A stretch of DNA of 64,000 bases from Phoronis australis (Eukaryota > Animalia > Phoronida): NCBI GenBank assembly GCA_002633005.1, contig NMRA01000445.1:311816-375815 (forward strand), in the 5' to 3' direction. The notes beneath the pieces were generated by a model. The model was not told the origin of the DNA. It did no database searches and saw only the letters and a list, made by a program, of their open reading frames with translations. Below, in pieces: positions 10,671-61,876 of the stretch; position 1 is the first letter of the stretch; the number at the start of each line of letters is the position of its first letter. Made by a program: the position numbers and the translations under genes.

Positions 10671-10764
10671 ATGGCAACATATCAGATACCGGCCCCAACC
10701 CCAATGTCAGTACAGGGGAATGTGGCAGAGAACTGGCTTGAATTTGAAACCGCGTGGATAGACT
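10671..10764 (+). pseudogene. gag: gag N-terminal fragment of the Gypsy element
   Basis: MATYQIPAPTPMSVQGNVAENWLEFETAWID resembles Mag-type gag starts (GN..ENW..F...W); cut off by the MITE at 10765. Confidence 0.75.
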
Positions 10765-11672
10765 CAGTGGCGGATCTAGGATATCACAAGGGGGGGCCCA
10801 ACATTTTGTCTGGCTGTAAGCATTTGCGCAAACCGAACCACGATTGTAGATGCGCATAGCACCGACAGGAATTTTTTCTGTTTTTACCTCCAAAAATCAA
10901 GCATTTTGCTTGATTCCTGAAGTATTATCCAAGAAAAAAAGGCCAAAAAAAAAAAACACAAAAAAAAAACGGAGAAAGTGTCAAACAAGAAAAACTGCAA
11001 GTTTTAAAGACTCGAACTCACGACCTCGAGTTCAGTGCACGCGTGCGTTACCACTACGCCACCACGATTTAACTACTAGTCTCGTACTAAGAGACCTACT
11101 TGTTTATGGTCTACAGCGTTTGCGCGCGAAACCTACTTCTTTTTGTAATGCTTATTACACGTTTTATATTTTGTGCCATCGATTCTTAACAAATTTGTCG
11201 TATTTTAAATAGTCTTCAAATGCCAAAAAGACCAAATCCGTTTTTCGTCTTGGCAATGATGACGGGATTGCTTTGGAAATCGTCTTAAGATAAGGTTTGG
11301 CAAAGAGAGTATTACGAGTTTCTGCGTGATTCACTAAGGCTTCGATTAAAATTCACATCTTACCAGCAGCTTCTGTTTTTTCATCGTCACTCAGGTTCCA
11401 TTTTCTGTGAAAAATGAAGTAAATTTTCTTCATTGCACAGTGGAGCAGACGACGGAAACGGAGTGCCACTGCCGGTCGCCTGGGATATCGCGGGAGAGCC
11501 TATACTTAGCCATAGTTCCGTTACGAATGCGCCGTGTTCCGAATTTGACACTTGAAATTGGATTTGAGCCCCACCCCTCAACACTAAAACTTCCCTACGC
11601 TCTTACTGTGTTATTTTTTTGCGGCAGCCAAGGGGGGGGGGCGGGCCCCTGCCCCCCCTAAATCCGCCTATG
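10765..11672. mobile_element. Non-autonomous DNA transposon (MITE) nested in the Gypsy element
   Basis: Imperfect TIRs CAGTGGCGGATCTAGG ... CCTAAATCCGCCTATG with G/C-run subtermini. The same termini occur in a copy at 44893-45211. Confidence 0.8.
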
Positions 11673-27200: not shown

Positions 27201-30200
27201 TAGGGGGCTATAGCCCACCCAATTTTTTTTCAGTGCTACGCAACCCAAGGTGTGTAATCGCTACACCACAGGGGCTGGGGGGCTATAGCTCCCACTTTTT
27301 TTCAGCGCTGCGCCGCCCATGCCAAGGTACGGAACAGTCAGATTTTATTGACTTCTTCCCGAAGTGCCTGCAGTGAGCATGAACAAAAACAAACAAAAGG
27401 CTGTGAAATGTAAAGAATTCTGCATTCTTTTCTCTGCACCAACGCTGGCAAATTCAGTTCTTTTTGTAAACGTAAGTTCTCTTGCTATAACTGTCCAATA
27501 TTACAACTGCGAGGTTATTCGTCTCAGTCTGTCTACCCCGACTGCATATACATACTAGGCTACACAAGACAAGGCTGTGCTGCTAAATAATATTCGTCAG
27601 TGCATTTTGTTGAGGGCGAGAATTGCACGAGTCTCATACTGAAGTGTAATTGAAAAGCATGATGTCGCCACCGCGATAAGGTCATCCAATGGCTGAGTGT
27701 TGAACACCTGTCGTTACAGTGACGTTGAAGGTCTCTAAAGCGCCTTTTGCGTTGATGATCTTTGCTCAGATATTGTCATGATGTATCACAGCTGATCCTA
27801 TGATTGTACTAGCTTGCACAACCTAGCTAGTGGTTGTCATGATAAAGAATAACCTCGGTCATTTCTGTGGCTTCATCAGTCATATCGACTCTTTAATTTC
27901 AGGTCAAGTTCGTAACCGTTTGCGTCAATGTCAGAGCTTCATGAACCTAGCGTTTGCCTTCACTCAACTTCAAGACTACACCTCTGCTGGGGACGCCTAC
28001 CTCCACGCACTGCAAGCTGCCAAAGACACTGGTAGGATCCGTCTATTGAGTTCAGAGAGAGTCATATACGCTTTCTGAAACCACTGCATTAGCGACACTA
28101 ATTTGGTGACAATCTCATATGTTATAAATCTGATCGCAAGATAAAACTTGATTTATGGTACCACTATTGCTCTGGATTCATGGAGTTCATTTGACATACC
28201 TTATAGCTGCATGTCTAAAATGTAAATAGAATTAAGCACTCGAATTTATTTTCATAAACATGACGTACATAGCACAGGTTAAAATTCAAGCCAAAACCCA
28301 ATTAAATTTGCGAACTGAAGCACAAGTTTCAAGCGGCTCCTTAGTCTTTTGAAAGTCTCGTTGCCTTGTTTTGATATCTCTAAAGTGTTCAATGACTAAA
28401 GTTATAGTTTTAGTAAAACATTAGTTTCGTTGTTGAGCTTCGACTACTACAGGTCCCACTCTTGTCACTTGAAGATGCGTTTAGCAACTAGGAACGACTT
28501 GTATATCGATGCATGACTATTTGTATTATGCACCCAGTCTTAGTAAATCTCTCTCTCTCTCTCTCTCTCTCCTTCAAGACTCAGGAGACTAGATCGAATT
28601 ACCCCTGCGAAATGTACCTCAGTTAACCATGGTTAACCATGGTTAACCATGGCTGTACAACCATGGTTGACCATGGTTGACCATGCTTCACAACCATGGT
28701 TATAAACCATGGTTACAAACCATGGTTACCAACCATGGTTACCAACCATGGTTACCAACCATGGTTACCAACCATGGTTACCAACCATGGTTACCAACCA
28801 TGGTTAACCATGGCTAACAACCATGGTTGACCATGCTTCACAACCATGCTATGAGACAACTTAACGCGAAATGTTAAAACCATTGTTAACCATGGTTGAC
28901 TATGCTTCACAACCATGGTTATCAACCATGGTTAACCGTGGCTAACAACCATGGTTGACCATGCTTCACAACCATGCTATTAGACAACTTAACGCGAAAT
29001 GTTAAAACCATGGTTTACCATGGTTACCAACCATGGTGTGGAACCATGGTTGACCATGGTTAATGAGACAACTTAACGCGAAATGTTAAAACCATGGTTG
29101 ACCATGGTTACCAACCATGGTATCATGGTTAAAAATCATGGTTGACCNACCGTTTAAAATTTGAAATGCCTGTCAAAGGTTTGCATGGGTCACTTTCCAG
29201 GAATGTAACCTTGACAACCAATTGTTAACACATGTTTGCTGATAACACTCCCAGGCTGTTCAACATGTACATGTAGCTGGGCTAGCATAAAATAAACATT
29301 TGGAAAACCCTTAGGGCAGTTCAACATTAGTGATGATTCAGTAGACTATCAAATAATTTTAGACAATGCATCTTGTGGGGATATTTTAAAAGTTGGTAAG
29401 TGTGATACAACTTTCTGTAGGTCAGTCTAACTTTGTACAGGAATGATCATAAAACATGCACAATTGCTTAGATTTAGTCAAATAATTTTCATGTTTTGTG
29501 TTGTTTTAGAAGAATTCCATTTAACGATGTTAATGAGTTTCTTATTCAATTTAATTAGTGCTTGGCAATTCCAATTTTCTAGTTGGCCAGCATTTTGCAT
29601 TTTATATTGTAGGGTCAGGCAATTAGACACAATTATATAATAGTTACTCCCTGTCCAAGAGTGTCATGTATAACCTGCTCTGGTCAACTAGACCTGCTAG
29701 TTGGAATAGTAAGGAATACTTCTGACCATGGTTAACTATGGTCGAAAGCATAGTTAACCATGGTTGCCTCTTTATAGACCAAGGCAACAATGGTTAACTA
29801 TGGTTTGGCCATGGTTGACTATGGTTTGGCCATGGTTGTCCATTTTTAAAATGGGCAACCATGGTTGACCGTGGTTTGACAGTGGTTTGGCCATGGTTGA
29901 CCATGGTGAGAAGCATAGTCAACCATGGTTGACAACTTGTGGAAAAGGCAACCATGGTTGACGATGGTTTGACCGTGGTTGACTGTGGTCAGAAGCATGG
30001 TCAAGCACGGTCAACCTTGGTTTAACCATGGTTGAACCATGGTTGACTGTGCTTTACCGTGCTTAACCATGGTCAACCAGGGTAACATTTCGCAGGGGTA
30101 AGGCCTAGTTCAATTTTCATTTTTTGTCAACTTAACTAAAGTACCCTTGTCTTGCATGCATTCAACAGAAGTAGAACAGTTACACAACTGTAGTTTTTGG

Positions 30201-33200
30201 ATACTATGAATTGGGAATGAAGAATGTCTCAAAGATAATTGAAATTGGACTTTTAAGATTTTTTGTTTAAGATGCTGCCTTCACTTAGCAGGTCACAGAA
30301 ACTGCCCTTTTGGTCTGCATTCTCAGCGATGTGAAATTTACATTTGGATCATCAGTTGAACTAAAACCCTGTCTGTTCACAGTGATATCTGTTGTTTCCT
30401 TGGTGAAAAGGTTTGTCAGTGGCAGGCACTAGAGGGCCTTGCTGGTGTAGCTTGCACTAGGAATGACGCAAAGAAGGCAGTCACCTACTACAAGCAAGCC
30501 TTAAGCATATTAGCGGCGACGCCTGGTGACAAGACAGAGGTGCAGGAGAGGATTGTGGGCAAACTAACTGATGTCCTCAAGAACCAGGTGGAACAGGTAT
30601 GTGTGGTAAAGAGTACTAGTCACGATGTTTTTGGACCGGATGTCAATGAGGGTGTCTAGAAAGTTGGGACTGCTACATTTTCAACAGCTCTGATTATAGT
30701 TTTCATTTAATTCATTTTAAGAACAATTTTGGCTTCTACCAACTGTTTCTTTCAGAAAGAGGTGGCGCAAAGTTGAGTCTTGAACTGAGGTTTTCCTGTT
30801 GAATGTACAACGCACTTAATAAATAAGTAATCCAGTTGTGCAAACACTTCTAGACAAACTTTAAGATTTACTCGTCTGCTCTCAGTATGAAGGTATCGAT
30901 AAAGACAAGTTTGTTGAAATATCATAGCAAAAGTGTGATATCTGATGCATTTCCTTCATTGGGCAGCTGTGCCTCGTTATGATCTAGTGGTCTGAGGTCC
31001 TGATTGCTGTTGCCACGGTTCAACAAAATAATCGCGTGCTTATGCGAATGTGATGAAAAACACACTGTAATCTTTTCTTTAACCTTAAATTTGACATAGC
31101 GTCATCTCATAGACCTGTAATTACCACCTCTTAATAAGAGGGAATATCCCTGTAGATGTCAGCACCAGTTTATGACGTACCCTTCTTCTGAGAACCATAT
31201 TCTGCTTAGACAAAGGAGTAAGGTTTTTGTTTATATGACCAGTTGGCATTTTTTTAACTTAAAAGTAACCTTGCATTTATTTTATGGTATTACTTGACTT
31301 CCATCTTCATTATACAGCTATTTTATTGACAGAGAATTTTGTTGTCTAATGTATAGAACATTTAAGTTAAAAGTGTTTATTTTCGGTTGCTGGTTATAAG
31401 TAAAATTCTGCCCCAAATGCGTAACTTCCTAGGTATTCAAAGCTCCAATCAATTCATTATGTCTTATGTCCATCTGTGCAGGCCAGCCCCACCCAGTCGC
31501 AGAACGAGAGAAAGCAGGGTCTTGATCCATCAGTCACAGTAAGTAAAAAAGATACACTATAGCATAGCGGTCCCAGTCTTTTGCTTGATCCAGTTTGTTG
31601 TGCAAGACAGACTAAGGAGGAAAGCAAAATCTTTTTAACATGTTGCTTCTAATAGCCAAACAGTACATTTACAAGGAGAGATGTCACTAATCTTCAAAGG
31701 TTTATTACGTATACTTATGTGTACTATAATGCTGAAAAATTAATTGCTTTTAAAACTTTGTATATCACAGCTGCTCTGCGAAATTGGAAAATTTCATTGT
31801 TCACGTTAGAGTCCATGTAGAAGTTGTTTATTTTAAACGAGATACGAGAATGGTCTCTCCTGAGGTGTGCACGCGTGAATAAATGGTGTACTTATTTGTT
31901 TGTTTTTGTATTGTTTTATAAACGATTATAAATTCTTAAAAAAATCTATTATTCACGGCACGTTGAATCATTGGACAAATCCAATCAGACTTTTGTTAGT
32001 AGTGGGCATCTTACCATTGATCTCCATAGTGTGTATAAATAGTGAGGCATGGACATACGTTTCAAACATTTCCTGTATGACCAGTGGTTCCAATGCCTCA
32101 ATGGCTATTTAAAGCGTCTGCAGGATATGCAGAAGGTCCTGAGTTTGAGTACCGGTCAGGGGCAGAAATCTTTTCGGACTTAGTCATTAGGTCACGTGAT
32201 GTGACCAAAAAGATATGGCGTGATGACGGGACAAAACATTCGCAATATATTTCCACGCCTACTTGGAAAAAATATATTTATACACAGTAATAAAATATTT
32301 GTTGCCATTGTTACAGACAGACGGCCATAACTCCGAGGAAGAATTTTTAACTTCGATTAGTGAAGTCCATGAAACTGACAGTGGTTCCGGCAGTAAGTTT
32401 CACAGCAGATTTCTGTTATAGTTTATCAAACTGAATATTTACCATACTCGACCATTTTACTGCATTGTATGCTTTAAAGTGACATTATCGGTGAGAGATC
32501 AGTGTAATCTTGCGAGCTTAGTCCCACTGTGGATTCAAAGTTGGAACTTTCACAGTTTCCACTCGGTAAATTGCTGTGTATTTAACCATTTAAAGAACTG
32601 TTGATAAAATCAACCACCTTGATTTCAGCAAATGTCTGTCAGGCAATGGCGAGAATTGTTGATTTGTTATAAAATCACAAAACAAAGTATTTTATTGCTG
32701 TCTAGATCTACACTGTAGTCAAGGCTTATCACTTCAAAACTCTATCTTATGCAATAGTAATCTCAAAATCTGTTTTTGGTCGCAAAAATGACGATGTTCC
32801 TTTAAGGCATCAAAATAATGTTCAAGTAGGGCACAGTCCGAGAATGCATTAAAACGGGAAGTTCGATACTGCTAGTGCCTACTGGGTAGATAGCGAGGAA
32901 ACAACAAACACTGTGTGCTTTCTGTAGTCTCGTTTCACATTCTGCTGCATGATGGCGCTTGAGCTGTCAGTGACATGTTTGGATGTGTAGAAGTCATGTA
33001 ACAATTCTCACAAATAACTTGTGGGGCCCGACGCTTTTGGAAAACTTCTACGCGTACTTATGAAGGGGTGAGGTTTATAACAGTGGAATACTGCAAACTA
33101 AGTCGTTGATTAACGTAATATTTTTAATTACACCATGCTTCGTAAGATGGATCCACCAGTCTAAAGCTTTTTATAAAATGTCTACTCCAAACATTCTTTT

Positions 33201-36200
33201 TGTTGTTTGTTCCGTGAGACCAGTTATGATGAGACAGCTATTATTCGATTGCCACAAGCTTCTTTTGCAAATTCTATATTTTGGTATGGCATCCATGGCT
33301 CTTGTGTTCAACAAGTATTTCTGCCTGTAAATATCACCATTAATTCTCTATATACCTTTCAACTGGAGATAACAACTTTTTGAGCCTGGTCTGCATGCCA
33401 CCTGTTGGCCACATGAAAGATTTATATTTGAACTGGAGAATTTACAAAGAATCTACCAGAAATCTGATTTGGCAAGATTGATCCTAATGAGAATACAGTA
33501 TTTTTCGTGATTAATCCCCCCTTAATTTTCTGAATGAAAGTTTTGGCTGCAGGGTCTCGTCAAGTGACACAGCTCCTAATAACTGTTGCTCTCCTCATAA
33601 TGGCTTCATACACTGTATATACTAAGCCTTTGATCGCGTGTGATATTGTCTATTTAATAGGAGGAACTTGGTGAGTGTGACTTGTAGTGGTTAATTTCCT
33701 GTTGATTGTTCTAAAACCCCGTCGACCCATGACCCTTCTATTCACGACCCACGATCCCTCGACCCAAGCTCGACTCAATTTGAACATAGAACAAGCGCTG
33801 ACTTCCAGGATCAACGAGTTGGGCGATGGGCTCGGCTGGCTTAATTTTCCTGTTTTTTGCAATTAAAAGTCGATTCGGCAAGTTTGAAAGCCAAAAAACA
33901 GAATAAAGTCACCCGACCAAATCGAATCAAAAACCTACCAATGTTACAAATGTCGTTCCCGCCAGAATGTAATCGTTTCGTCTGCTCTTCAATGGATGGC
34001 AGATGCAACCTTTTAGCGGAGAGTGTGAGGAACCGGCAGAACCGTAATTTCATCACAGTTTGAAAAAAATTCAAACTGTTAAGCCTGCACGCAACCAAAC
34101 ATTTTGATAGATTCTTATTATAGACTGACCTCTTTTGATATAAAAAATAAAAAATAACAGGGTCAAGCATTTTGAGAACCAGTTCTATCTGCTGAATAAT
34201 GATCATCGAACTGGTTCTCAAAATACGGGACCCCTATAATATGTTACTATTGCCCAGGAAAGCGCAATGGATCATCCATTACGCTTTCCTGGGCAACGGC
34301 TGCCACACATTTTCAGCGCACAAGTGCTGACATTTAGGTGGACAACGAGAGGCAAAAGGCGGCTTGCTTTTGGGAATCAATTTTTCCACTGAATACGAAG
34401 CATCAAACTGGTTCTCAAATTCGTGGACTATAATTGCACCACATATTTAGAACTAGTTTTCACCACTGAATACCGGGCATAAAACTGGTACAGAAGCACA
34501 CCTTTAAGTGATTATTGCCCCAACATATGCGGCGCACCATAGGGGGCTATAGCCCCACCCAACCTTTTTCAGTGCTACGCAACCCATCGTCTGTGGGCTG
34601 GGGGGGGGGGGGGNCCACTTTTTTCAGCGCAGCGCCGCCCATGCCAACGTACAGAAAGTCAGGTTTTTATTGTCTTCTTCCTCAAGTGTCTGCAGTGAAC
34701 ATGAACAAAACAAACAAATGGCTGTGAAATGTAGAGAATTCTGCATTCTTTTCTCTGCACCAACGCTGGTGAATTCAGTTATTTCTGTAAACGTAATTTC
34801 TTTTGCTATAACTGTCCAATATTACAACTGTGAGGTTATTCGTCTCAGTCTGTCTGACCCAACCGCATATACATACTAGGCTACACAAGACAAGTCTGTG
34901 CTGCTAAATAATATTCGTCAGTGCATTTTGTTGATGGCGAGAATTGCAGGAGTCTCATACTGAAGTGTAATTGAAAAGCATGATGTCGCCACCGTTATAA
35001 GGTCATCCAATGCCTGAGTGTTGAACACCTGTCGTTACAGTGACGTTGAAGGACTCTAAAGCGCCTTTTGTGTTTATGGTCATTGCTCAGATATTGTCAT
35101 GATGTATCACAACTGAGCCTATGATTGTACTAGCTTGCACAACCTAGCTAGTGGTCGTCATGATAAAGAATATCCTCGGTCATTTCTGCGGCTTCATCAG
35201 TCATATCGACTCCTTAATTTCAGGTCAAATTCGCAACCATTCTGGTCAAGGACAGTGCTTCATGAACCTAGCGTTTGCCTTCACTCAACTTCAAGACTAC
35301 ACCTCTGCTGGGGACGCCTACCTCCACGCACTGCAAGCTGCCAAAGACACTGGTAGGATCCGTCTATCCACCCAGTTCAGAGAGAGTCATATAATCTTTC
35401 TGAAACCACTGCATTAGCGACACTAATTTGGTGACAATCTCATATGTTATAAATATAATCGCAAGATAAAACTTAAGTTATTTTACCACTTTTGCTCTGA
35501 ATTTATGGAGTTCCTTTGATATACTTGTAGCTAAATGTCTAAAATATGAATAGAATTAAGCACTCGAATTCATTTTCATAAACATGACAGACCTAGCACA
35601 GGTTAAAATTCAAGCCAAAACCCAATTAATTTTGCGAACTGAAGCACAAGTTTCAACTATATCCCATTCCCAGCCCTATTCCCAGCCAAACACAATACAC
35701 AGCCATCTGGATCGGCTGCTAACAATCAACACCCTAGGCACATACAGTTTTATGACATATTGAGGTGTCATAAAGGATTGCATTGGTGACCAAGCAACCC
35801 CAAACAACTGCGGGCTAGAGTGTTCACATTTAGTAAACTCCAACTGCTCGAGGATCATCATCCGACGGTCAACTTTTACCTGGACTGGGTTCCTCAAGAC
35901 TAGACTCATAATGTTCCTTACTGTGATTGGATTCTATTTTCGTCATCACCTTCATCGTGGAAACTCTAAGTGGGTACCAGTATACATTGCCTGTGACTTG
36001 ACGTGGTAATGGCAATTTTCAAATTTTCATTAACAATTAAAATTGTATTACATTAAGAAGTATTTATACTACTTAGCTTGCTGCATTGAAAATGTTGACA
36101 AAATACACATTTTCCCTCCAAAGGTCAAAATCCCTTAACAGTATTTATGGATCTCTCAAAGGCATTTCACACCATTGATCACAAATTCTTCTCAAGAAAT

Positions 36201-39200
36201 TACAACACTACGGTATTCGCAACAATGAAATACAGTGGTTCACAAGTTATTCATCATATAGAATGCAATTCGTATCTGTTGACAAAAAAGAATCTGCCAA
36301 CCTACAGATTATCACTGATGCTTCGCAAAGTTCCTTACTTTTTCTGGTATAACTGTATGTAAATGACCTACACCTATCCACTTCATTTGATGTACCCATA
36401 TATGGAGATGACACATGCCTTATAACACATCCGTCTTAACATAGCCTAAACACTTCCTCAACAGATGCATCAGCAGTTTTCATAACCAATTAACTCTCAC
36501 GTCTAAATGCCTGGCTGATAGCAAATAAATTTTCAGTTAACTCCTCAAAAAACCAAATACATGTTGTTTAGCTTTCCCCAGAAACATCTGAATGAGCAAC
36601 ACATTCCCGGTCTGCAAATCCTGAACAAGTCAATTACTTATGTCGAATTATTTAAGTTTTGGGATTAAATCTCAGACACTAATATCTTGGAACAAACGTA
36701 TACAAGAAATAGCAAACAAGACTGCTAAAACAGGTGGTGTACTGGACAAGTTAAAAACAACGTTTCCTCAACACGTACTTCTTTTGATTTATAAAGCTCT
36801 CATTTTACCATCCTTTACTTATGATGTAAAATGCTGGGGTTTCCACAACTGCCGTCGACTACATGTATTACAAAAACGTGCTGTTCGAAAAACATGTATT
36901 ACCTCATCATACTTCCTAGCTCATACTGACCCGTTATTTCGGTCACTGAATGTTCTATCCTTAAAAGATATTTATGTTCGGAATATGTCCCAAAAATAGG
37001 TACGTTTCAAGCTCCGTTTCCAGAGATACAAAGGACACCGTGTATGGGCGATATAAGGTCATTTATTTTGACTGATAAGGTACAGAAATGTGAGTGTACA
37101 AATAACATAAAGATAAAATAAGAATCTCTGGAAAGATGGGCAATAAAAAGTGCCACAAGAGATGTTGAAGACAGCTCATGCCCATTTGCAGGGATGCACC
37201 ACAAGAAAAGGGAGGAAAAAGTTGCAAAACTATTCATAAAAATGCATAATATCAAACTGCAGAATCTGTGCATCTCAGCATCGCTAAAGTTTTAAAATTT
37301 AAAAGTTTTAGAGAGATGTGTCTTACCATCACTTCTGATTATTGTTTCCCTGCGCTGTGTATTGGATTTCAATCATGTACAGTTATGCCTACCGTGCCAT
37401 TTTTTATTCTGTATGTTTAGTTCTTTTTTGTAATGTGGTTTTTATTATATAGTATAATATATTTAACGTACTCAATCGTTTTTTTCATTTATTGTGCCAG
37501 CCATGTTAAAGTTTAGGTTACATCATTCTTACTTTGTACAGTATATTAGTTTCTCCCATTATTGCATTGGTAGTTGATATTGAAAACCCTACATGCACAA
37601 TATTTACAAAGATATATAACCATTTTGTTGATACTCAACACGGGTTTATGTTTCACTCATGTAGTGAAAAGAATTGTTGAAACGAATTTCTAATTTTATT
37701 TTTTGACTAACTACATGTGTAGATATAGGTGGCTTTCATGCAAGCGACTCCTTAGTCTTTTGAAAGTCTCGTTGCGTTGTTTTGATATCTTTAAAGTGAT
37801 CGCTGACTATTATACACCCAGTCTTAGTAAAACCTTAGTTTTGTTGTTGAGCTTCGACTACTACAGATCCCACTCTTGTCACTTGAAGATGCGCTTAGCA
37901 ACTAGGAACGACTTGTATATTGATGCATGACTACTTGTATTATGCATGGCTAAAAAAATTCCCAATCCCCTCTCTCTCTCTCTCTATCTCTCCTTCAAGA
38001 CTCAGGAGACTACATCGAATTAAGGCCTAGTTAAATTTTCATTTTTTGTCACCCTTGTCTTGCATGCATCCAACACAAGTAGAACAGTTACACAACTGTG
38101 AATTGGGAATGGAGAATGTCTCAAAGATAAATGAAATTGGACTTTTAAGGTTTTTTTGTTTAAGATGCCGCCTTCATTCAGCAGTTCACAGAAACTGTCC
38201 CATTTGGCCTGTATTCCCATCAATGTAAAATTTACATTTGGATCATCAGTTGAACTAACCCTGTCGGTTCACAGTGATAGCTCTGTTGTTTCCCAGGTGA
38301 CAAGGTTTGTCAGTGGCAGGCACTAGAGGGCCTTGCTGGTGTAGCTTGCACTGAGAATGACGCAGAGAAGGCAGTCACCTACTACAAGCATGCCTTAAGC
38401 ATATTAGCGGCGACGCCTGGTGACAAGACAGAGGTGCAGGAGAGGAATTTGGGAAAACTAATTGATGTCCTCAAGAACCAAGTAGAACAGGTATGTGTGG
38501 TACAGAGTACAAGTCACATTTTTTTGGATCGCCTGTCAATGAGGGTGTCTAGAAAGCTATATTTTCAACAGCTCTGATTATAAGTTTCATTCAATTCATT
38601 TTAAGAACAATTTTGTCTTGTACCAATTGTTTCTTTCAGAGAGAGGTGGCGCAAAGTTTAGTCTTGAACTGAGGTTGTCCTGTTGAATGTACAACGCACT
38701 TAATAAATAAATAATCCAGTTGTGCAAACACTTCTAGACAAACTTTTAGATTTACTCGTCTGGTCTCAGTATGAAGGTATCGATAAAGTCATTTGTTAAA
38801 ATATCACAGCAAAAGTGTGATAGCTAATGCATCTCCTTCATTGGGTAGCTGTGCCTCGTTGTGATCTAGTGGTCTGAGGTCCTGATTGCTGTTGCCACGG
38901 TTCAACAAAATAGTCGCGTGCTGATTTGAATGTTATGAAAAACGCACTGTAATCTATTCTTTAATCTTAATTTTAACACAGCGTCATCTCAAGACCTGTA
39001 ATTACCACCTCCTGATAAGAGGGAATATCCCTGTAGATGTCAGCACCAGTTTATGACGTACCCTTCTTCTGAGAACCATATTCTTCTTAGAGAAAGGAGT
39101 CAGGTTTTTGTTTATATGACCAGTTGGCTTTTTTTACATAAAAGTAACCTTGCATTTATTTTATGGTATTACTTGACTTCCATCTTCAATATACAGCTAT

Positions 39201-42200
39201 TTCAGTGACAGAGAATTTTGTAGTCTAATGTATAGAACTTAAGTGTTTACTCTCGGTTGCTGGTTATAAGTAAAATTCTGCACCAAATGTGTAACTTCCT
39301 AGATATTCAAAATTCCAATCAATTCATTATGTCTTATGCCCATCTGTGCAGGCCAGCCCCACCCAGTCGCAGATGGAGAGCAAGCACGTTCTTGTTCCAT
39401 CAGCCGCAGTAAGTCAAAACTTTTAAAGTGTTTTCAAAAAAGATACAGTCTAGCATAGCGGTCGGAATCTTTTGGTTGATCTAGTTTGTTGTGCAAGACA
39501 GACTGAGGGGGAAAGCAAAAGCTTTTTAACATTTTGCTTCTAATATTCAAACAGTGCATTTACAAGGAGAAATGTCACAAAATATACCTAATTTTCACAG
39601 GTTTATTACATATACTTATGAGTACTACAATGTTGAAAAATTAATTGCTGATAAAAACTTTGTATATCACAGCTTCTCTGCGAAATTGGAAAATTTCATG
39701 GTTCACGTTAACTCCATGTAGAAGTTGTTTACTTTATACGAGTTACGAGAATGGTCTCTCCTGACGTGTGCACGCGTGAATGAATGGTGTACTTATTTGT
39801 TTGTTTGCTTTTGTACTGTTTTATAAATGATAATAAATTCTAAAAAAATCTTTTATTCACGGGACCTTGAATCATTGGACAAATCCAATCAATGTTTAGT
39901 TAGTAGTGGGCATCTTACCATTGATCTCCATTGTGTGTATAAATAGGTTTTTCAGTGAGGCGTGGAAATATATTGCAAACTTTTCGTGTTTGGCAAGTGG
40001 TCCCAATGCCTCAATGGCTAGAGCGTCTGCCGGTTAAGCAGAAGGTCCTGAGGTTGAGTACCGGTCAGGGGAAGAATCTTTTAGGACATTAGGTCACGTG
40101 ATGTGACTAAAAAGATACGGCGTGATGACGGGACAAAACATTTGCAATAAATTTCCACGACTCATTGGAAAAAAACATATTTATTCACAGTAGTAAAATA
40201 TTTGTTGACAGGACAAAAATGTATTTGGGATGTTTTTGGGATTTTTTTCTGCCTTAAATATGAGTAAAGAGGCACTGCCATTGTTACAGACAGACGGCCA
40301 TAAATCCGAGGAAGAATTTATAACTTCGATGAGAGAGGTCCACGAAACTGACAGTGATTCCAGCTGTAAGTGTCACAGCAGTTTTCTATAATAGTTTCTC
40401 AAACTGAATATTTACCATACTCGACCATTTCACTGCATTGTATGCTTTAAAGTGACATTATCGGTGAGAGAAGTAATCTTGCGAGCTTAGTCCCAGTGTG
40501 GATTCAAAGTTGGAACTTTCACAGTTTCCACTCGGTAAATTGCTGAGTATTTAACCATTTTAAGAACTGTTGATAAAATCAACGACCTTGATTTCAGCAA
40601 ATGTCTGTCAGACAATGGCGAGAATTGTTGACTTGTTATAACATCACAAAAACAAAGTATTTTATTGCTGTATAGATCTAGTCAAATCTTATCACTTCAA
40701 AACTCTATCTTATGCAATAATAATCTCAAAATCTGTTTATAGTTGCAAAAATGACGATGTTCCTTTAAAGCATCAAAATAATGTTCAAGTAGCGCACAGT
40801 TCCAGAATGCATTAAAACGGGGAAGTGCTAGTGCCTCCTGGGTAGATAGCGAGGTAACAAGAAAGTGCTTTCTGCAGTCTCGTTTCCCATTCTGCTGCAT
40901 GATGGCGCTTGAGCTGTCAGTGACATGTTTGGATGTGTAGAAGTCATGTAAAACATTCTCGCAAAATAACTTGTGCCGCCTGACGCTTTTGCAAAACTTT
41001 TGCGCGTACGTATCAAGGTGTAAGGTTTATAACAGTGGAATACTGCAACTTAAGTCGTTGATTAACGTAATTTTTTAATTACACCATGCTTCGATAGATG
41101 CATCCACCAGTTTTAAGCTTTTTATAAAATGTCTACTCCAAACATTCTTTTTGCTGTTTGTTCTGTGAGACCAGTTATGATGAGACTGCTATTATTCGAT
41201 TGCCACAAGCTTCTTTTGCAAATTCTATATTTTTGGTATGGCATCCATGGCTCTTGTGTTCAACAAGTATTTCTGCCTGAAAAGATCGCCATTAATTCTC
41301 TATATACCTTTCAACTGGAAATCACAACTTTTTGAGCCTGGTCTGCATGCCACCTGTTGGCCACATGAAAGATTTATATTTGAACTGGAGAATTTACAAA
41401 GAATCTACCAGAAATGTGATTTGGCAAGACTTGATCCCAATGAGAATACAGTATTTTTCATGATTATTCCCCCCTCAATTTTCTGATTGAAAGTTTTGGC
41501 TGCAGGGTCTCGTCAAGTGACACAGCTCCTAATAACTGTTGCTCTCCTCATAATGGCTACATACACTGTACATGTATATCCTAAGGCTTTGATCACGTGT
41601 GATATTGTCTATTTAACAGGAGGAATTTGGTGAGTGTGACTTGTGGTTAATTTCCTGTTAATTGTTTTAAAACCAGGTCGATCCACGACCCCCTCGTCAC
41701 ATGACCCCTCTACTCACGACGTACGACCCCTCGACCCAAGCTCGACTTAATTTGAACATAGAACAAGCGCTGACTTGCAGGACCAACGAGTTGGGCGATG
41801 AGCTCGGCTGGCTTAATTTTCCTGATTTTTTGCAATTAAGAGTCGATTCGGCAAGTTTGAAAGCCAAAAACAAATCAAATCAAAAACCTACCAATGTAAC
41901 AAATGTTGTTCCCGTCAGAGTGTAATCGTTTCGTCTGCTCTTCAATGGATGGCAGATGCAACCTTTTAGCGGAGAGTGTGAGGAACCGACAAAACCGTAA
42001 CTTCATCGCAGTGTGAAAAAACAAACTGTTAACCAAAAAATTTCAATGTTATAAGGAGTATATTGTAAACAAGTATACAGCAGAAAGCAAATATTAAAAT
42101 GTGAAATTATGTACATTCATGTTAACGTACTCTCTCCCTATGTTTAGCAGAATTGGGCCATTGGTAGCCGCTCGAGGAACTATTTCCATAACGATAGCAT

Positions 42201-53200: not shown

Positions 53201-55586
53201 TGGAACTTTCAGACAATTTGTCTGCAAATTACATTTTGGAAAATACCCACAAGTAACTTTTCATATTTTGCAAACGAACTCAAACTTGAGATTTATAACT
53301 CAAGTGTCTACAACACACAGTAAAATCTCACCAGTTCATGAAATAATACGTCTGGCAAGTAAAACTTTATGGCACCTAAATGCAATATTTTGAAAAATTG
53401 TGAGGATTCACATCCATGTTAGAGGACTATGAAAAAATATCAATTTTGACATTACTTTTGTTATTAATTGGAGATTTTACCAGCAGAAAAAGGTGCTTTT
53501 TATCGCTCATCTTACCAGAATTTATCATTTTTTATTTTACTTATCTGTATTACTTGTAATTGTATTAGTCATAATAAATTACCTCATATCGCCTACCTCT
53601 GTCTCTTTTTTATCTCTGGTAACTAGCTTGCGACGTACGTATCCTTTATCTATTATTCGAACATATGTCGATTATAAAAATCCTTTGCTCGCATGTATAG
53701 TATTTACCTCATTTTGATATTCCCGTTGAAGACCTGCATTGATTTGCTTTTGAATGATGTGTCGCTTCTTTCTGAATGCCTTGTATATGTAATACACATC
53801 GGGGTGATGTCTGTAAACAAACGAGCAATTTTAGCATGAACAGTTCAAATAGATAAGCAGATGAAATGCCTTTAATAAACCAGTTTACAGGTTTAATTAT
53901 TCCCTCATCAAATATAAACCAGACACTAAATTTTAACACCTTTTGTAACATTCATTTACGGATTTGGAGCAGTAAATGAGTGAAAAAGCAAAGACACACA
54001 AATAGCCAACCTGTAGTGACCTTGATCTTACCAGTCCTTCGGTGAGGGTCACAAAAAGAATCCTATATTGACACCCTCAATGTCAAGATTGTGCAACTTG
54101 ACCCCTTTGAGTACCTCAAAATCTGGCTCACTGGTCAAAGACTGTAGACACCATGTTTTAGTTAACTACATTGCCTCAGGTTGCTGATGTTATCATTTTC
54201 TAGACAATCAGATCGATCACCAGCACACAGGGGGTGACAAAAAATTTTCACTAAGAGAGTTTCTAAATAGTTGAATAGTTCGTGAAAAGTACACACGATT
54301 AGGTTTGTGATTTTTGAAAATGGTTCAAGAAATGTGACTTTTACAACATAAAACTTTGTAAAATATTGCCATATTGTGCTCTTCATTATAATTCTGATGT
54401 GTGTACAACATAATAGGGCCAATTACCAAACCAGCAGGCAGCAGTTGGATTTTGAGGTAATCCAAGTGTCACACCGTACAATTCTTGTCTTGGCTCACGA
54501 GTTACAAACGTTGTTTAGTTTTAATCATTATGCTTCCTGGATTGTTTTAATTGAATTATGGGTATCAGACTTACAATGTTAATACTAAATTTTGTTTGCC
54601 TTATGGCACACTACATGGGTGAACCCAAACTAACACATCAGATGGTAAACATTCAACATCGGTTTTCATTTACATAAGTTTTGGTGTTACTTCGTAAGAC
54701 AAAAAGTAATTATTTTACAGAGGAAAAAAGTGTAAAGTTCTCTTAATCAGAACTAAATTCACCACATAAGGCTTTTTTTCTTAACCTATACGATTCATCT
54801 AGGTCATCTGACTACGGAAGGCTAGGCAGAAACTCTTCCAAAATTCATGCGGTTATCACCAATTACCCTCTGACACAGCGCCACCTATACTGACAAGTGG
54901 CCTACTGGAAACATAATGAATGACACACGGAATTCCGTGTGTGGGCACCAATGCGCATGCTTGGTCAGAAGTTCCTCAATCACATCGCCACCACTTGCAC
55001 ACGCCTTCAATGCACTGTACTTGTTTGGGCTTAGCCACAAGATCGGAGCTCCCTTGATTTTGTTTACTTTTATTACTGCACCTTTTAATAAATTGCAACT
55101 ACACAAGTCAAAGGTGGTCGCCATACTATGCAGCTGTAAACTGAAAGGGGTTCCCAGATTTCAACCAATGGGAATAACTGAATGTTATGATGTCGGTTTC
55201 CAATGAGAAGCCACATGATCAAAAACATTTCGTAGCACTGTGAAAGAGTGTAATCAACCATCTGCTTTTCAACTTCCAGAATTGTGGCAAAGATAAACCA
55301 AGGTCAAGGACTAATGCTTAGGCCAAATAAAAGTTCTTCGAAAGATTGCTAAATTGTCTACGAAGTGGCTCGGAACTTAAGACAATGCAACTGTTAATTA
55401 GAGACGATATGGTACCATCTACTCGGAAGATGGACACATGACACAGACTCGCAGTGCTGTGCGTGAGCTTGCAATCCTGCATATAATCTCAAGATTAAGC
55501 TGAAGTGAGTGTTGCATGAACACGGAATTGAATATTCTTTAAGGCAAAAGGGAGAAATTTTGTTCGCTGAAAAGAATTTTTGTAAT

Positions 55587-56051
55587 TGTAGTAATAGCCG
55601 AGAACACCCGCCTCGGTACTCGAACCCGCGACCCCAATAAAACCGGCAAGCGTGCTAACCTTTCAGCTAATAGGCAATTGCCCGTTAGCGAGTAGCTAAC
55701 AGAGGCTAATATAATTCACTGGAAGCACATCTACAACATTCCCCCCCTTTCCTACGGAACGGGCACGCGACAGGAAGGTGAACACCAGGATGTCTCGCAT
55801 ACAGGTCGTCAACGTCCCTTGGTACCTTTACCACCACAACACAGGTGAACACAAGGTCGTCTCTCATACAGGTCCTTGACTCCTGGAACCTTCCACGCGC
55901 GCTGTCCCGAGGTCCGTAGTTGGCAGTCCTTCATCGGTAGATCATCCGTTTGCCGACTACGTCATTTGTAATTATAGCCGAGAACACCCAACTCGGGACT
56001 CGAACCCGCGACCCCCATAAAACCGGCAAGCATGCTAACCATTCAGCTAAT
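55587..56051 (-). mobile_element. TRIM (miniature LTR retroelement) copy 1 with a tRNA-derived LTR segment
   Basis: LTR about 55587-55738, ~230-bp non-coding interior, second LTR from 55967 cut by N. Minus-strand PPT AAAGGGGGGGAA and a PBS-like segment (TGACGTAGTCGGCA). Confidence 0.85.
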
Positions 56052-56056
56052 NACAG

Positions 56057-56454
56057 TGTAGTAATAGCCGAGATTACCCGACTCGGGGATCGAACCCGCG
56101 ACCCCCCATAAAACCGGCAAGCGTGCTAACCATTCAGCTAATAGGCAATTGCCCGTTAGCGAGTAGCTAACAGAGGCTTATATAATTCACCGGAAGCACA
56201 TCTACAACATTCCCCCCTTTCCTACGGAACGGGCACGCGACAGGAAGGTGAACACCAGGATGTCTCGCATACAGGTCATCAACTTCCTTGGTACCTTTAC
56301 CACCACAACACAGGTGAACACAAGCTCGTCTCTCATACAGGTCCTTGACTCCTGGAACCTTCCACGCGCGCTGTCCCGAGGTCCGTGGGTACTAGTTGGC
56401 AGTGCTTCATTGGTAGATCATCCGTTTGCCGACTACGCCATTTGTAGTAATAGC
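56057..56454 (-). mobile_element. TRIM copy 2 with a tRNA-derived LTR segment
   Basis: LTR 56057-56209, interior 56210-56442, next LTR from 56443 cut by a gap. Minus-strand PBS TGGCGTAGTCGGCA (56427-56440) is complementary to the tRNA-Ser 3' end. Confidence 0.88.
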
Positions 56455-56482
56455 NNNNNNNNNNNNNNNNNNNNNNNNNNNN

Positions 56483-56529
56483 GGGGGGCGCTTATAGGGG
56501 CATGGGCGGTTATTACGGCGAATACGGTA
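56483..56529. mobile_element. Terminus of a pogo/Tigger-like MITE
   Basis: GGGGCGCTTATAGGGGCATGGGCGGTTATTACGGCGAATACGGTA; the complementary subterminal motif occurs at about 44531-44566. Confidence 0.5.
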
Positions 56530-56659
56530 ATAGAATTCCAATCCTTATCCTTATTTATATGTACTCCGGTTTGACATGTTGTTACCACCACTATTTCAAA
56601 CAGGTTTGACATCATAGGAAGAATGATATTTCTTTCATTACTATGTAGACCGGGATCCC

Positions 56660-57130
56660 AGAGCATTTTTGGGCATGAAAAGGTAACCAATTTTCTTTGG
56701 TGCCACAGTGCCCTATGAGTATCCTGATGCTTGGAAATGGTTGTCTAGCAGGCTCGTTCTGGTGGGTGTGGTCAAAGGAGGCAAGAGAATGACACTCAAA
56801 AATTGAGCTATATCAACCTTTCTGGTAACCACTTCAAACTGCCTTGGATACCTACCATGTAATCCAGTGCATCAAAATTGGTCATTGCCAGACAATTTCA
56901 GTGGTGGGGAGTATCAGCCAGACAGTTATAAACAAGGTGCAAAAATTGAGCTAGATCAATCCAAGAGGTAACCGCGTGAAACCAGTTGCAAAATATTCAC
57001 CGTGAGCCCAGGTATCACGAATAAACACTGCCAGACAAATCTAGTGGTGGGTTAGCCTCGCCAGACACGCCCAAATACCCGAGTTGAGCTAGATCAACCC
57101 ACAAGGTAACCGTTTGAAACCAATTGCACG
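56660..57130. repeat. Diverged ~140-bp tandem repeat, 3-4 units
   Basis: Recurrent TTGAGCTAGATCAA...GGTAACC...AAAC and TGCCAGACAA...AGTGGTGGG at about 140-bp spacing. Confidence 0.7.
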
Positions 57131-58160: not shown

Positions 58161-59689
58161 AAAACCCCTCAAAAATCTGCCAAACAATTTCTTACAATAC
58201 CGAAAAACCAACCAGCGAGTGCTGCAGTACAGTTGAACTTCGTTACTGGGACATATCAAAGATTTTCTTTGTAATCAAGGTTAGCAGCAGCAAGCAAACC
58301 AACTTTTGAGACTAAATAAAAAAACCACTAGTAGAGTACCAGAACATCACTGTTGCCTTTTCATTGGTAAAAATACAAAATTAACATGGTCCAGGGCTGC
58401 ATACTGTATGTAGCAAAAACTTGAACAAGTCAGAAGCACATATCGTTACATACTCGTAACATTCCAGCAAAATACAGGTAGAGTCATGCTGTCGTAACAT
58501 TAAACAATAAACTGATAGGTTTTCATTTGGTCCACATTTTTGATACATAAGGATGTCAACCCGTGTGCCCAGCCACGTACAGCAAATCACGTCCCTGTGT
58601 GTCACTCGCGCTGGGAAGCATGCGCTGGTTCCCTGTAAAGTTGGTGAAAATTAAATTGGCATATTATTACCATATGAACGTTGTATCCATGTCATTGAAA
58701 CCGAAGTATAGAAAGCATTTAGTGCATTGGAGAAAGTGGAACTTGCAGAATGGAATACTGGGTAATTGTTACTTGATTCGAGTGTAGTCCAATCTGTTGA
58801 ATAACCAGCTTGTGTTGATACATCCCAACCAAGAACGCTTCTATCTGTCCTGTTTTGAAAATAACAGACAAGCAATATTTTGTCGTAGAATCTGCAGACA
58901 ATTGTAACTGAAGCTCCGACATACCTCAGTGTCACCCATGACATGTTTTGAATCATGAGGCGTGTCTAGTTTAGGTTGCCTGCATTACATCTCAATAACA
59001 ATGCATGGATTTGCTGCATATAAAAGAAATTTTTTAAACTAGCTATAAAACTGCCTTCCTTCACAACAACCAACTCCAGATTTTGAAAACTTAAGTCTGA
59101 ATTGTTACGAAGTCAAAATAGAAAAGATTTCTGGGCTTGGAGTTTATAATTGTTTAAGACCGATTTTACAAGTTAGGCTTGTCACTAGATATAATTTTAC
59201 TTGCCAATCCCGGTCTCAAACAATAACAAAGTGGAATTTTCTTTTTTTTGCCAGAGCAATGCAGATCATAGAATGTGCCCATGACTGTAATGTAAATGGT
59301 ATACTTCTAGGGGGGTTATTGGTATCATTCATAACAATGGCCATTAAATGGCAGAGAATATCATCCAATGTGTTCGTAATGGGAAGGCAAACATGAAGAA
59401 AACATAATCCCATTTGGAGGCAAAGCTTGACTGTCAAGGCCATGTATAATAAAAATGCAACTGGCTTTACCAAGACACTTAAGTAACTCAGACTGTTTAC
59501 ATCGTGGAAGACACTGCTGCTGAAAACTTTCCTTCTAGTTAAGACTTTTTGAACTTATCGACTTTGACATTACATTAGTATGAAAGTTGCAATCTTTTTT
59601 AAACAAAATGTTTCCACATACAGTTTCAAACTAAACTTCTGTTACAGCTGCACCACACTCGAAAACCATACTTCATAAGTGCTCTCCAG

Positions 59690-61876
59690 ACACAACTGCT
59701 CTCTCTGACAGCTAAACCAACTCTAACTCAGTATTTGGATATTTGAATAGACAGTGAACAGTTTTGTTGCAAGCTCTTTGATGTTATTAAGGGAACATGT
59801 TTAATCATTCAAAGTGGGTGATTACCTCCCAGTGGCCTTTTCAGAACTGACAAGCCTATTTAAATTGTATCTTTATAGAAGAGTTCTATCATATTTTACA
59901 CGTTCGGCACGCTAGCGTGTCACATTTTACACGTTTGACACGCTAACGTGGCAAATTTTACACGTTTGACACGCTAACGTGGCAAATTTTACACGTTTGA
60001 CACGCTCAAAAGTGTGTCAAACGTGTAAAATTCTCACCCGGGAAGAGAGCGATGTCCTTGGTAACTCATAATGAAAGAGTAAGAGGGAACTATTATTAAA
60101 ATCTCTTGGTCTATTTGCACCGACCTCTGTTCAGCTTACTTATCCTAAACTGTTCTCTTTTGAGTCTGTGAGGGGTACTGGCCAGGAGTTTCTCGATTAT
60201 TTTTACAGAAAGTTCTTGTTACCAGTTACCCCGCCCCCCCTTCATTATATAGTCATTGTTTGCAGTATTTCACACCCGCCGTGTCCCACTGTGTGTGTCA
60301 TCAGTTTATCCTCTGTGGTGGCATTACTACGTCATTTTATCTTCACTTGAGAATGAAACAAGTATGTTTCGAAATATCGTGTTCCTTTCAATTACGTCGC
60401 TAGGTCAGTTACTTTATCTATGTTCAGTTTAGAGTAGTTTTGTTCCAAAGGTACATGTATGAACGTAACTGAATAAAGACTGTCAACAATAATATGTGTA
60501 TAAGTGCCGTGCGTTTAATCAATTCTGCATATCCGAAAAGATCTTGTACATTGTATTTTTTGGAAATGAAATGATTACTATAGTGTCAGGAATGTTTTTA
60601 ATGTAATATGTTAAATCTATGATTGCAAAACCGAGTTTGTACATTATGTCTAGTTTGTCCTACATATTGACATGTTATTAGGTAAATCATATTGTTGGTA
60701 GTGCAGTCAGAATCATGTTTTGCTTTGAAGTGTTCACTGGTTTGAGAAGACTTGAAGGAACCATAGTCATTGATAAAGTTACACATTTTGCATCTAGATT
60801 TGTTACATTGTGTGTTGCCAATAGATTTGTCACTTTGGTTTTTATAACTAGATGATTTTTTAAGCTTTTTCATTTTCTCCAATAAATTAGAGGTGGATGA
60901 GGAAATAGGTTTTTCATTTGAGGGTAATTATACAGAATGGAAAGATGCTTTCTGAAGACGTGGCTAATTCCGTTTAAACATGGATGAAAGGTTTGCCATT
61001 AACAGTTATCTTTCACTTTTGTTCTTGAAGATTTATTTCTTCTGATTGAGCGGACTTAGTCAAACTGTTTGTGTATCAGATGTAAGGGGAAATGATGTAT
61101 TGCACTTAGAATTCATCGCAGTGCGAATTTCAGAAGAAAAAAATGCATGATGTTGGTCATGCACCCATTAACTTATTTTGCATAAAGAGCAGCGAAATAC
61201 TTTGACTAGATGCGACATTCCATTATTGCGTGATTGGTTCACTTTGCTTAACCCGGGTGAGAATTTTACACGTTTGACACGCTTTTGAGCGTGTCAAACG
61301 TGTAAAAAAACGTGTAATACGTGTCAAAATTGCCACGTTAACGTGTAAAAAGTGTAAAAACATGACACGCTAGCGTGTCAAACGTGTAAAATTTGCCACA
61401 TTAGCATGTCAAACGAGTAAAATTTGCCACGTTAGTGTGTCAAATGTGTAAAATTTGCCACGTTAACGTGTCAAACGTGTAAAATTTGACACGCTAGCAT
61501 GACAAAAGTGTAAAATTTGCCACGTTAACGTGTCAAACGTGTAAAATTTGCCACGTTAACGTGTGAAACGTGTAAAGTTTGACACCCTAGCATATCAAAC
61601 GTATAAAATGTGACACGCTATGGTGTCAAACGTGTAAAATTTTACACGCTAGCGCGTCAAACGTGTAAAATATGATAGAACTCTTCGATAAAGACACAAT
61701 TTAAATAGGCGTGGCAGTTCTGAAAAGGCCACTGGGAGGTAATCACCCAATCTGAATGATTAAACATGTTCTCTTAATAACATCAAAAAAGTTTGCAACA
61801 AAAGCTTTCACTGACTATTCAAATATCCAAATACTGAGTTAGATTTGGTTTAGCTGTCAGAGAGTGCAGTCGTGTC
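59690..61876. repeat. Long inverted repeat: two arms (59690-60042 and 61252-61876) of a CCC-terminus element with ~31-bp ACACGTTTGACAC satellite
   Basis: About 200 bp of unique sequence plus the satellite are reverse-complementary between the arms; the inner ends are TTCTCACCCGGG and CCCGGGTGAGAA. Confidence 0.85.
60590..60990 (-). mobile_element. Penelope-like element GIY-YIG fragment
   Basis: CNKSRCKMC...DCTTNNMIYLITC-QYVGQT...TRFCNHRFNI. Confidence 0.82.

What the first reader, a model, noticed from the sequence alone, without database searches (positions are those of the whole stretch)
55587..56454. Miniature LTR retroelements (TRIMs) whose LTRs carry a tRNA-derived Pol III promoter
Seen: two ~530-bp non-coding units on the minus strand, each LTR (~150 bp, TG..CA) - PBS - ~230-bp interior - PPT - LTR. 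The PBS TGGCGTAGTCGGCA matches the eukaryotic tRNA-Ser 3' end. Each LTR, in the element's sense, holds an A box TAGCTGAATGG (56130-56140), a D-stem GCT..AGC, and a T-arm CGGG-TTCGATC-CCCG with B box (56087-56096) at tRNA spacing; the anticodon arm is degenerate. Known: plant Cassandra TRIMs embed 5S rDNA in their LTRs, and I recall tRNA-bearing animal TRIMs being described as Ajax. Inference: a SINE/LTR hybrid transcribed by Pol III and mobilised in trans by a tRNA-Ser-primed Gypsy. This family and host may be undescribed.
Basis: partly seen in the sequence, partly recalled or inferred. Interest (0 to 1): 0.8.

Follow-up and report, generated by a model that had tools for sequence, protein, structure and literature searches.

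The report
New Helenus-type miniature LTR retrotransposon family
This is a small, gene-less, very abundant jumping element with a tRNA-gene-like promoter motif in its end repeats, a kind described in 2024 as Helenus; it is likely a new family, and a short self-complementary motif it shares with published mollusc, ribbon-worm and fish families would let two RNA copies pair for packaging.

Summary
Real, and of a known kind. The minus strand holds two 93%-identical copies of a non-coding LTR element: 152-153-bp TG..CA LTR, 14-nt tRNA-Ser primer site, ~230-bp interior, polypurine tract. Both 5' LTRs are cut by assembly gaps, so neither ~530-bp unit is whole. A and B boxes lie where stated (2 of 20,000 shuffles). 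Public runs show a dispersed high-copy family with exact LTR ends, and two flank pairs fit 4-bp target duplications. This is Helenus (Kojima 2024), not Ajax, which carries 5S; this scan has noted the kind before on other DNA (24 notes, at least 9 genomes). No published family matched 11 of 12 motifs, so the family is probably new; the host is an unplaced animal. Pol III transcription and a Gypsy helper remain inferred. Added here: just 5' of the A box sit a hairpin and a 12-nt palindrome. By eye the palindrome is also in 31 of 51 bivalve, 3 of 3 nemertean and 18 of 18 chordate Helenus LTRs, its centre changing but staying self-complementary. The paper does not mention it. It suggests one cross-phylum lineage and an RNA dimerisation signal.

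The parts
56443..56454 (-). Last 12 bases of unit A's 5' LTR, cut by the 28-N gap 56455-56482
   Evidence: DNA contigs continue from 56454 into LTR sequence in joints to 56112, 56008, 56002
56427..56440 (-). Primer-binding site, 14 nt complementary to the tRNA-Ser 3' end (unit A)
56210..56442 (-). Non-coding interior of unit A (233 bp) with a short internal direct repeat; no TTT run
   Evidence: fold not better than shuffles, z 0.49
56210..56223 (-). Polypurine tract of unit A
   Evidence: sequence
56057..56209 (-). Complete 3' LTR of unit A (153 bp, TG..CA)
   Evidence: 22 and 21 DNA contigs with unrelated flanks end exactly at 56057 in runs X3, X4
56155..56171 (-). 6-bp hairpin upstream of the predicted start (LTR positions 39-55)
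   Evidence: outer two pairs change on both sides in L004, L012
56143..56154 (-). 12-nt self-complementary palindrome directly 5' of the A box (LTR positions 56-67); candidate RNA dimerisation site
   Evidence: 12 of 12 letters paired, self-duplex -19.6 versus hairpin -4.2 kcal/mol; function inferred
56130..56140 (-). Pol III-type A box with D-arm-like stem
56110..56113 (-). T4 run between A and B box, the only T4 on the sense strand of the element; candidate leaky Pol III terminator
   Evidence: role inferred
56087..56096 (-). Pol III-type B box in T-arm-like stem
55967..56051 (-). 3' 85 bases of unit B's 5' LTR (A and B boxes intact), preceded by one N at 56052
   Evidence: joint 56051 to 56117 in all 4 DNA runs shows the LTR continues
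55739..55966 (-). Interior of unit B (228 bp): PBS with one change at 55964-55951, polypurine tract 55753-55739
55587..55738 (-). Complete 3' LTR of unit B (152 bp) with hairpin, palindrome and changed A and B boxes
   Evidence: RNA reads with other flanks end at 55587-55589 and 55738

Best explanation
This is a dispersed, high-copy, non-coding LTR retroelement (TRIM) with tRNA-type A and B boxes in each LTR, of the Helenus kind, likely transcribed by RNA polymerase III from inside the 5' LTR and likely copied and inserted by the proteins of a separate tRNA-Ser-primed Gypsy element. Shown: LTR, PBS, purine tract, boxes, dispersal, exact ends; 4-bp duplications shown indirectly. Inferred cycle: Pol III would start about 10-20 nt upstream of the A box (general knowledge of tRNA promoters), which would put the 12-nt palindrome at the RNA's 5' end; two RNAs would pair through it, as Ty1 and Ty3 RNAs do through 5' palindromes, and be packaged by helper Gag; the RNA would end in the 3' LTR, perhaps at the single T4 run, giving a repeat of about 45 nt for strand transfer; tRNA-Ser primes the first strand, the purine tract the second, and a Gypsy integrase makes the 4-bp duplication. 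LTR-LTR recombination leaves solo LTRs, some of which are read as parts of host transcripts.
For: Anatomy and box statistics. DNA contigs: 3185, 2071, 2421 and 2504 laid from 4 runs of one sample, summed depth over the LTR thousands of times that of the unique flank (156,060 and 59,579 versus 25 in X1; not a copy number), 21-22 unrelated flanks at the LTR end. RNA reads: 633, 631, 759 laid, most 85-95% alike; flank pairs GGGC/GGGC (X9) and CTTC/CTTC (X7, X8) fit 4-bp duplications, 2 of 9 listed pairings, P about 7e-4. At the best-supported variant sites in unit B's boxes most reads carry the canonical letter. Helenus definition, animal 4-bp TSD and Gypsy-like PBSs. Shared hairpin + palindrome module in published LTRs (by eye) and in 2 independently fetched loci. 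Ty1 and Ty3 precedents (abstracts).
Against: No start or end peak of RNA in 3 raw-read runs (table 6), and LTR reads lie mostly in the orientation opposite to the interior's bias, so no discrete Pol III product was seen. The T4 run stands in both LTRs and must be read through in the 5' one. No Ser-primed helper in the window; the Gypsy-like element present uses a Leu-type PBS and a 5-bp duplication. Flank pairing is inferred, one pair needs a changed terminal base, and 161 loose-end rows were not shown. The two window copies may be chimeric assemblies (unit B's LTRs match at only 77 of 85).
Confidence: 0.75

Rival explanations
1. It is a TRIM, but the tRNA-like boxes are a relic of an old SINE insertion; the RNA template comes from Pol II (own LTR promoter or read-through).
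For: T4 inside the promoter would stop Pol III early; no discrete RNA ends seen; a TATA-like word lies 30 nt before the palindrome in LTR A.
Against: The TATA-like word is private to this copy: 105,555 of 106,166 summed contig depth in X1 carries another letter at 56179. No AATAAA on the sense strand (sequence). Boxes are kept while acceptor and anticodon arms are lost, here and across phyla.
Confidence: 0.15
2. A retrozyme-like element that replicates through a self-cleaved circular RNA, with the tRNA boxes as promoter.
For: Earlier scan notes report twister ribozymes behind tRNA boxes in other animal LTRs (unchecked).
Against: Rfam E-value scan of 55400-56700 gave 3 hits, all far below gathering score and none a ribozyme; interiors fold no better than shuffles.
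Confidence: 0.05
3. A local satellite, a plain SINE or an assembly artefact that only mimics LTR anatomy.
For: Both units abut assembly gaps; the pairing of the two units is unverified.
Against: Many unrelated flanks at exact TG and CA ends, PBS directly after the LTR in other contigs (joint 56442 to 56057), a 416-nt contig in X5 running LTR-interior-LTR, 4-bp flank matches.
Confidence: 0.03

Closest known systems
Helenus (TRIMp3), Kojima 2024, PMC10886601 (main text parts 1-6 of 6 read; supplement parts 1, 5, 6, 7, 10, 11 of 11 read plus 2 motif searches)
   Same: TRIM under 1 kb, tRNA-type A and B boxes in the LTR, non-functional tRNA, 3'-end tRNA PBS, PPT, 4-bp TSD as in animal members, solo LTRs.
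   Different: 11 of 12 motifs from this element have no hit in the supplement (the 12th, a B-box 11-mer, has 4); this Ser PBS is not in Fig. S2; T4 lies between the boxes and the T before the A box is not a TTT run as in most module-bearing families; host lies outside the vertebrate, oyster and hymenopteran clades on one gene.
Mytilid Helenus-2 families (Helenus-2_MyGa, -2_MoPh, -2_LimFor)
   Same: Ser primer, similar sizes (LTR 141-156, interior 226-268), hairpin + palindrome + A box module; Helenus-2_MyGa shares the first 9 LTR letters (by eye).
   Different: Other Ser isoacceptor PBS, other palindrome centre, no long shared stretch seen by eye; not aligned by tool.
Ajax (same paper) and Cassandra (PMC7215508, passages)
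   Same: Pol III promoter from a small-RNA gene inside TRIM LTRs; Cassandra forms LTR-interior arrays and reads through its LTRs.
   Different: 5S-derived boxes A/IE/C, 5-bp TSD and Leu primer in Ajax; plants and iMet-type PBS in Cassandra.
Ty1 PAL1/PAL2 and Ty3 5' palindrome (PMC6844567, PMC11381356; abstracts only)
   Same: Short self-complementary sequence near the RNA 5' end proposed or shown to hold the RNA dimer.
   Different: Autonomous Pol II elements of yeast with experimental support; here only position and covariation.

Membership tests
Helenus | Non-coding TRIM shorter than 1 kb | tested here: met
   152 + 228 + 152 = about 532 bp inferred; no ORF of 150 aa overlaps it
Helenus | Two LTRs with TG..CA ends around the interior | tested here: met
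   3' LTRs whole; 5' LTRs cut by gaps in the window but continued in contigs (joints; X5 record 4)
Helenus | PBS complementary to a tRNA 3' end and PPT | tested here: met
   14-nt match to tRNA-Ser; purine tracts
Helenus | [quoted passage not shown] | tested here: met
   Met in LTR A and the partial 5' LTR B; 2 of 20,000 shuffles; LTR B 3' copy is changed
Helenus (animal) | 4-bp target site duplication | tested here: met
   Indirect: 2 of 9 listed flank pairings match over exactly 4 bases; not visible in the window
Helenus / TRIMp3 | Transcription by RNA polymerase III | tested here: inconclusive
   Ordinary RNA-seq shows family reads but no start or end peaks; unvalidated in the paper as well
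Helenus (animal) | Gypsy helper with the same PBS | tested here: inconclusive
   None in the window; no genome held
An already published Helenus family | Sequence identity to a consensus in Data S1 | tested here: not met
   11 of 12 exact motifs of 8-13 nt absent; line breaks can hide a hit; Repbase and Dfam not searchable
Ajax / Cassandra | 5S rRNA-derived promoter in the LTR | tested here: not met
   No 5S hit at E up to 10; boxes are tRNA-type
Retrozyme | Self-cleaving ribozyme in the LTR | tested here: not met
   No ribozyme family among the 3 weak Rfam hits

The most novel reading that the evidence does not exclude
The element belongs to one ancient (or horizontally spread) lineage of animal Helenus shared by bivalves, nemerteans, fishes, coelacanth and this further animal group, marked by a hairpin + palindrome module that replaces the tRNA's 5' acceptor strand. 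The palindrome, whose centre takes 10 different self-complementary forms in bivalves alone, is the 5' RNA dimerisation signal that lets these Pol III transcripts enter Gypsy particles. This would go against separate origins in each host clade and give the first cis packaging signal for TRIMp3 elements.
Probability: 0.4. Interest if true: 0.6.

Novelty: new member of a known kind. Interest (0 to 1): 0.36.

Why it matters
As a further Helenus family it widens the host range of a class known from one 2024 paper and warns that such LTRs can be mistaken for tRNA genes or SINEs. The shared module matters more: how a TRIM without homology to its helper gets packaged is stated as unknown in that paper, and a 10-12-nt covarying palindrome at the predicted RNA start is a small, directly testable candidate. 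It also bears on whether animal Helenus arose once or many times.

Tried and rejected
No genome is held for the window, so no genome-wide copy count, linked TSDs or helper search. Exact 20-mer scan of metagenome contigs: 0 hits. Degenerate module scan: 12 metagenome hits, of which 2 (L004, L012) are LTR-like and 10 lack a B box downstream (one of them, L006, has only 36 bases left) and were set aside as chance; 3 of 3 genome-contig hits have no B box; 0 viral hits. Five of the 13 set-aside hits also pair at the two outer hairpin positions (4 of them one homologous bacterial locus), so that feature alone is weak. The 'Abox GG' column was mis-anchored and is ignored; one search placed the second helix on wrong columns and is replaced, whose covariation is modest (17 of 500 shuffles, 4 sequences, most columns fixed by the pattern). 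TATA-box reading rejected. Absence of TTT in the interiors is not significant (24-27% of shuffles lack it). Interior long stem not significant (z -0.34 and 0.49). The idea that a U3-dependent long hairpin switches the T4 on only in the 3' LTR is not excluded, but a hairpin ends near the same place without U3 too. No RNA holder on record was listed; the RNA runs were added by species label. Host placing: GDPD1 is 46-54% identical to all 37 rows compared, on a long unplaced branch outside the starred vertebrate, arthropod and oyster clades (37 of 120 listed hits used; it is intronless and may be a retrocopy); a TPR exon hit an annelid and a scallop at 36-39%. Phylum not determined. The original Cassandra paper was not held. 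Scan-note search by sequence: 0 look-alikes; by palindrome words: 0.

Full report
Observation. On the minus strand the order is: 28-N gap, 12 bases of an LTR end, PBS, 233-bp interior, purine tract, complete 153-bp LTR (56209-56057), four other bases and one N, the last 85 bases of an LTR, PBS, 228-bp interior, purine tract, complete 152-bp LTR (55738-55587). The two units are 93% identical over 400 columns. The PBS matches 14 letters of the human tRNA-Ser template printed in PMC3299991 (passage; same in PMC7449687). There is no tRNA gene: ARAGORN and Rfam report none here. The claim of two whole 530-bp units is not borne out by the assembly, since both 5' LTRs are cut.

It is a dispersed mobile family. 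Four DNA runs of one sample gave 2071-3185 contigs on 55100-56900, with summed depth over the LTR thousands of times that of the unique flank (the tool warns that this is no copy number). In two runs 22 and 21 contigs with unrelated flanks end exactly at the LTR's last base, and joints show LTR sequence continuing 5' of both cut LTRs and directly before the PBS. Three RNA raw-read runs (about a fifth of each read) gave 633, 631 and 759 reads on 55400-56051, most 85-95% alike. Loose ends pile at both LTR termini. The listed flanks give two matches of exactly 4 bases, GGGC in X9 and CTTC in X7 and X8 (the latter needs a changed terminal base); 2 of 9 pairings has P about 7e-4, but the pairing is inferred and 161 rows were not shown. 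Depth in those reads is far higher on the LTR than on the interior, which fits solo LTRs inside host transcripts. Interior reads lean to first-mate-plus (46 vs 43, 68 vs 38, 44 vs 14 in one bin), which would be element sense if the libraries are of the usual stranded kind; strandedness is not on record. No start or end peak was listed.

Known kind. Kojima 2024 (PMC10886601; whole main text read) names tRNA-bearing TRIMs Helenus and 5S-bearing ones Ajax. Animal Helenus have 4-bp TSDs, 3'-end tRNA primers shared with Gypsy families, and occur in six phyla; Pol III activity is inferred, not validated. This element meets every sequence criterion. It is not one of the published families by exact motif search of the supplement (11 of 12 motifs absent); I read parts 1, 5, 6, 7, 10 and 11 of 11, not 2-4, 8 and 9, and could not search Repbase or Dfam. 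Paper searches for Helenus or TRIMp3 listed no later primary study; a meeting report only cites it (passages). The scan's own notes hold 24 findings of this kind in at least 9 genomes, none alike in sequence.

Host. The window is animal DNA: GDPD1 and TPR proteins hit only animals at the top, at 46-54% and 36-39%. GDPD1 sits on a long branch outside the starred vertebrate, arthropod and oyster clades, so the host is probably not one of Kojima's main groups, but one possibly retrocopied gene cannot place it.

The shared module. Directly 5' of the A box the LTR has a 6-bp hairpin and a 12-nt palindrome (fold z -3.5 for the 33-nt stretch; self-duplex -19.6 versus hairpin -4.2 kcal/mol). Reading the supplement by eye, a 10-12-nt palindrome in the same place, nearly always behind a similar hairpin and followed by T's and the A box, is present in 31 of 51 bivalve LTRs (24 fully self-complementary with G-U allowed, 7 with an unpaired centre), 3 of 3 nemertean and 18 of 18 chordate LTRs, and absent from 3 brachiopod, 1 ctenophore and the 11 hymenopteran LTRs that I saw (of 40 families). 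The other 20 bivalve LTRs show tRNA-like acceptor arms there instead. The four central letters take 10 different forms in bivalves (such as TTAA, GTAC, GATC, TCGA, CATG), all self-complementary. A hairpin loop would not need that and a sequence-specific protein site would not tolerate it, so pairing between two RNAs is the simplest reading (inference). A degenerate pattern for the module fetched 2 real LTR-like loci among 12 metagenome hits; both have perfect 10-nt palindromes in letters the pattern left free, and both extend the hairpin by pairs that change on both sides (weak statistics on 4 sequences). The words palindrome, hairpin, inverted repeat and dimer do not occur in Kojima's main text, which favours separate origins per clade; passages of the bivalve TRIM paper PMC6934838 concern interior hairpins of another element. 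Ty1 and Ty3 dimerise through 5' palindromes (abstracts).

Mechanism and limits. Shown are the anatomy, dispersal, exact ends and, indirectly, 4-bp duplications. Inferred are Pol III initiation at about LTR positions 50-60, termination at the single T4, dimerisation through the palindrome, and help from a Ser-primed Gypsy. The T4 stands in both LTRs, so the model needs read-through at the 5' one; Cassandra arrays are reported to read through their LTRs (passages). A Pol II reading loses its TATA-like word, which is private to this copy. The Gypsy-like element at 10155-14168 has a Leu-type PBS and a 5-bp duplication and so is not the helper.

Verdict. A new family of a published kind, in a probably new host group; ordinary as a class. 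The cross-phylum covarying palindrome is the part worth following, and it rests on by-eye counts.

Noticed in passing
window 10155-14168 (+): Gypsy-like LTR retrotransposon of about 4 kb with very short 74-bp LTRs (98.7% identical), Leu-type PBS, purine tract and 5-bp duplication; RT, RNase H and integrase domains lie in separate, interrupted frames and an 83-N gap cuts the integrase.
   Followed up: partly
window 56483-56531: End of another high-copy repeat, likely a DNA transposon: 71-96 contigs per run leave into unrelated flanks at 56529, and its sequence continues into the 28-N gap, so the gap is undersized or the elements are nested.
   Followed up: partly
window 28723-28819: ARAGORN's tRNA-Thr call lies inside a satellite of a palindromic 10-mer and has no Rfam support; a false call.
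   Followed up: yes
window 55455-55530: Fragment of another repeat in the 3' flank that is well represented in RNA reads, mostly on one strand.
   Followed up: no
window 59689-61876: 2.2-kb foldback-like element with long terminal inverted arms built of 31-bp subrepeats.
   Followed up: no
window 5339-6280 (-): Intronless GDPD1-like lysophospholipase D gene on a long branch, about 50% identical to all animal homologues listed.
   Followed up: partly
window 26575-34082 and 34093-42032: Several kb duplicated at 85-90% identity, a local segmental duplication or two haplotypes assembled in tandem.
   Followed up: no
L004:560-735 and L012:506-640: Helenus-like LTR sequences, resembling the oyster families by eye, inside two metagenome contigs; host DNA in those assemblies.
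   Followed up: partly
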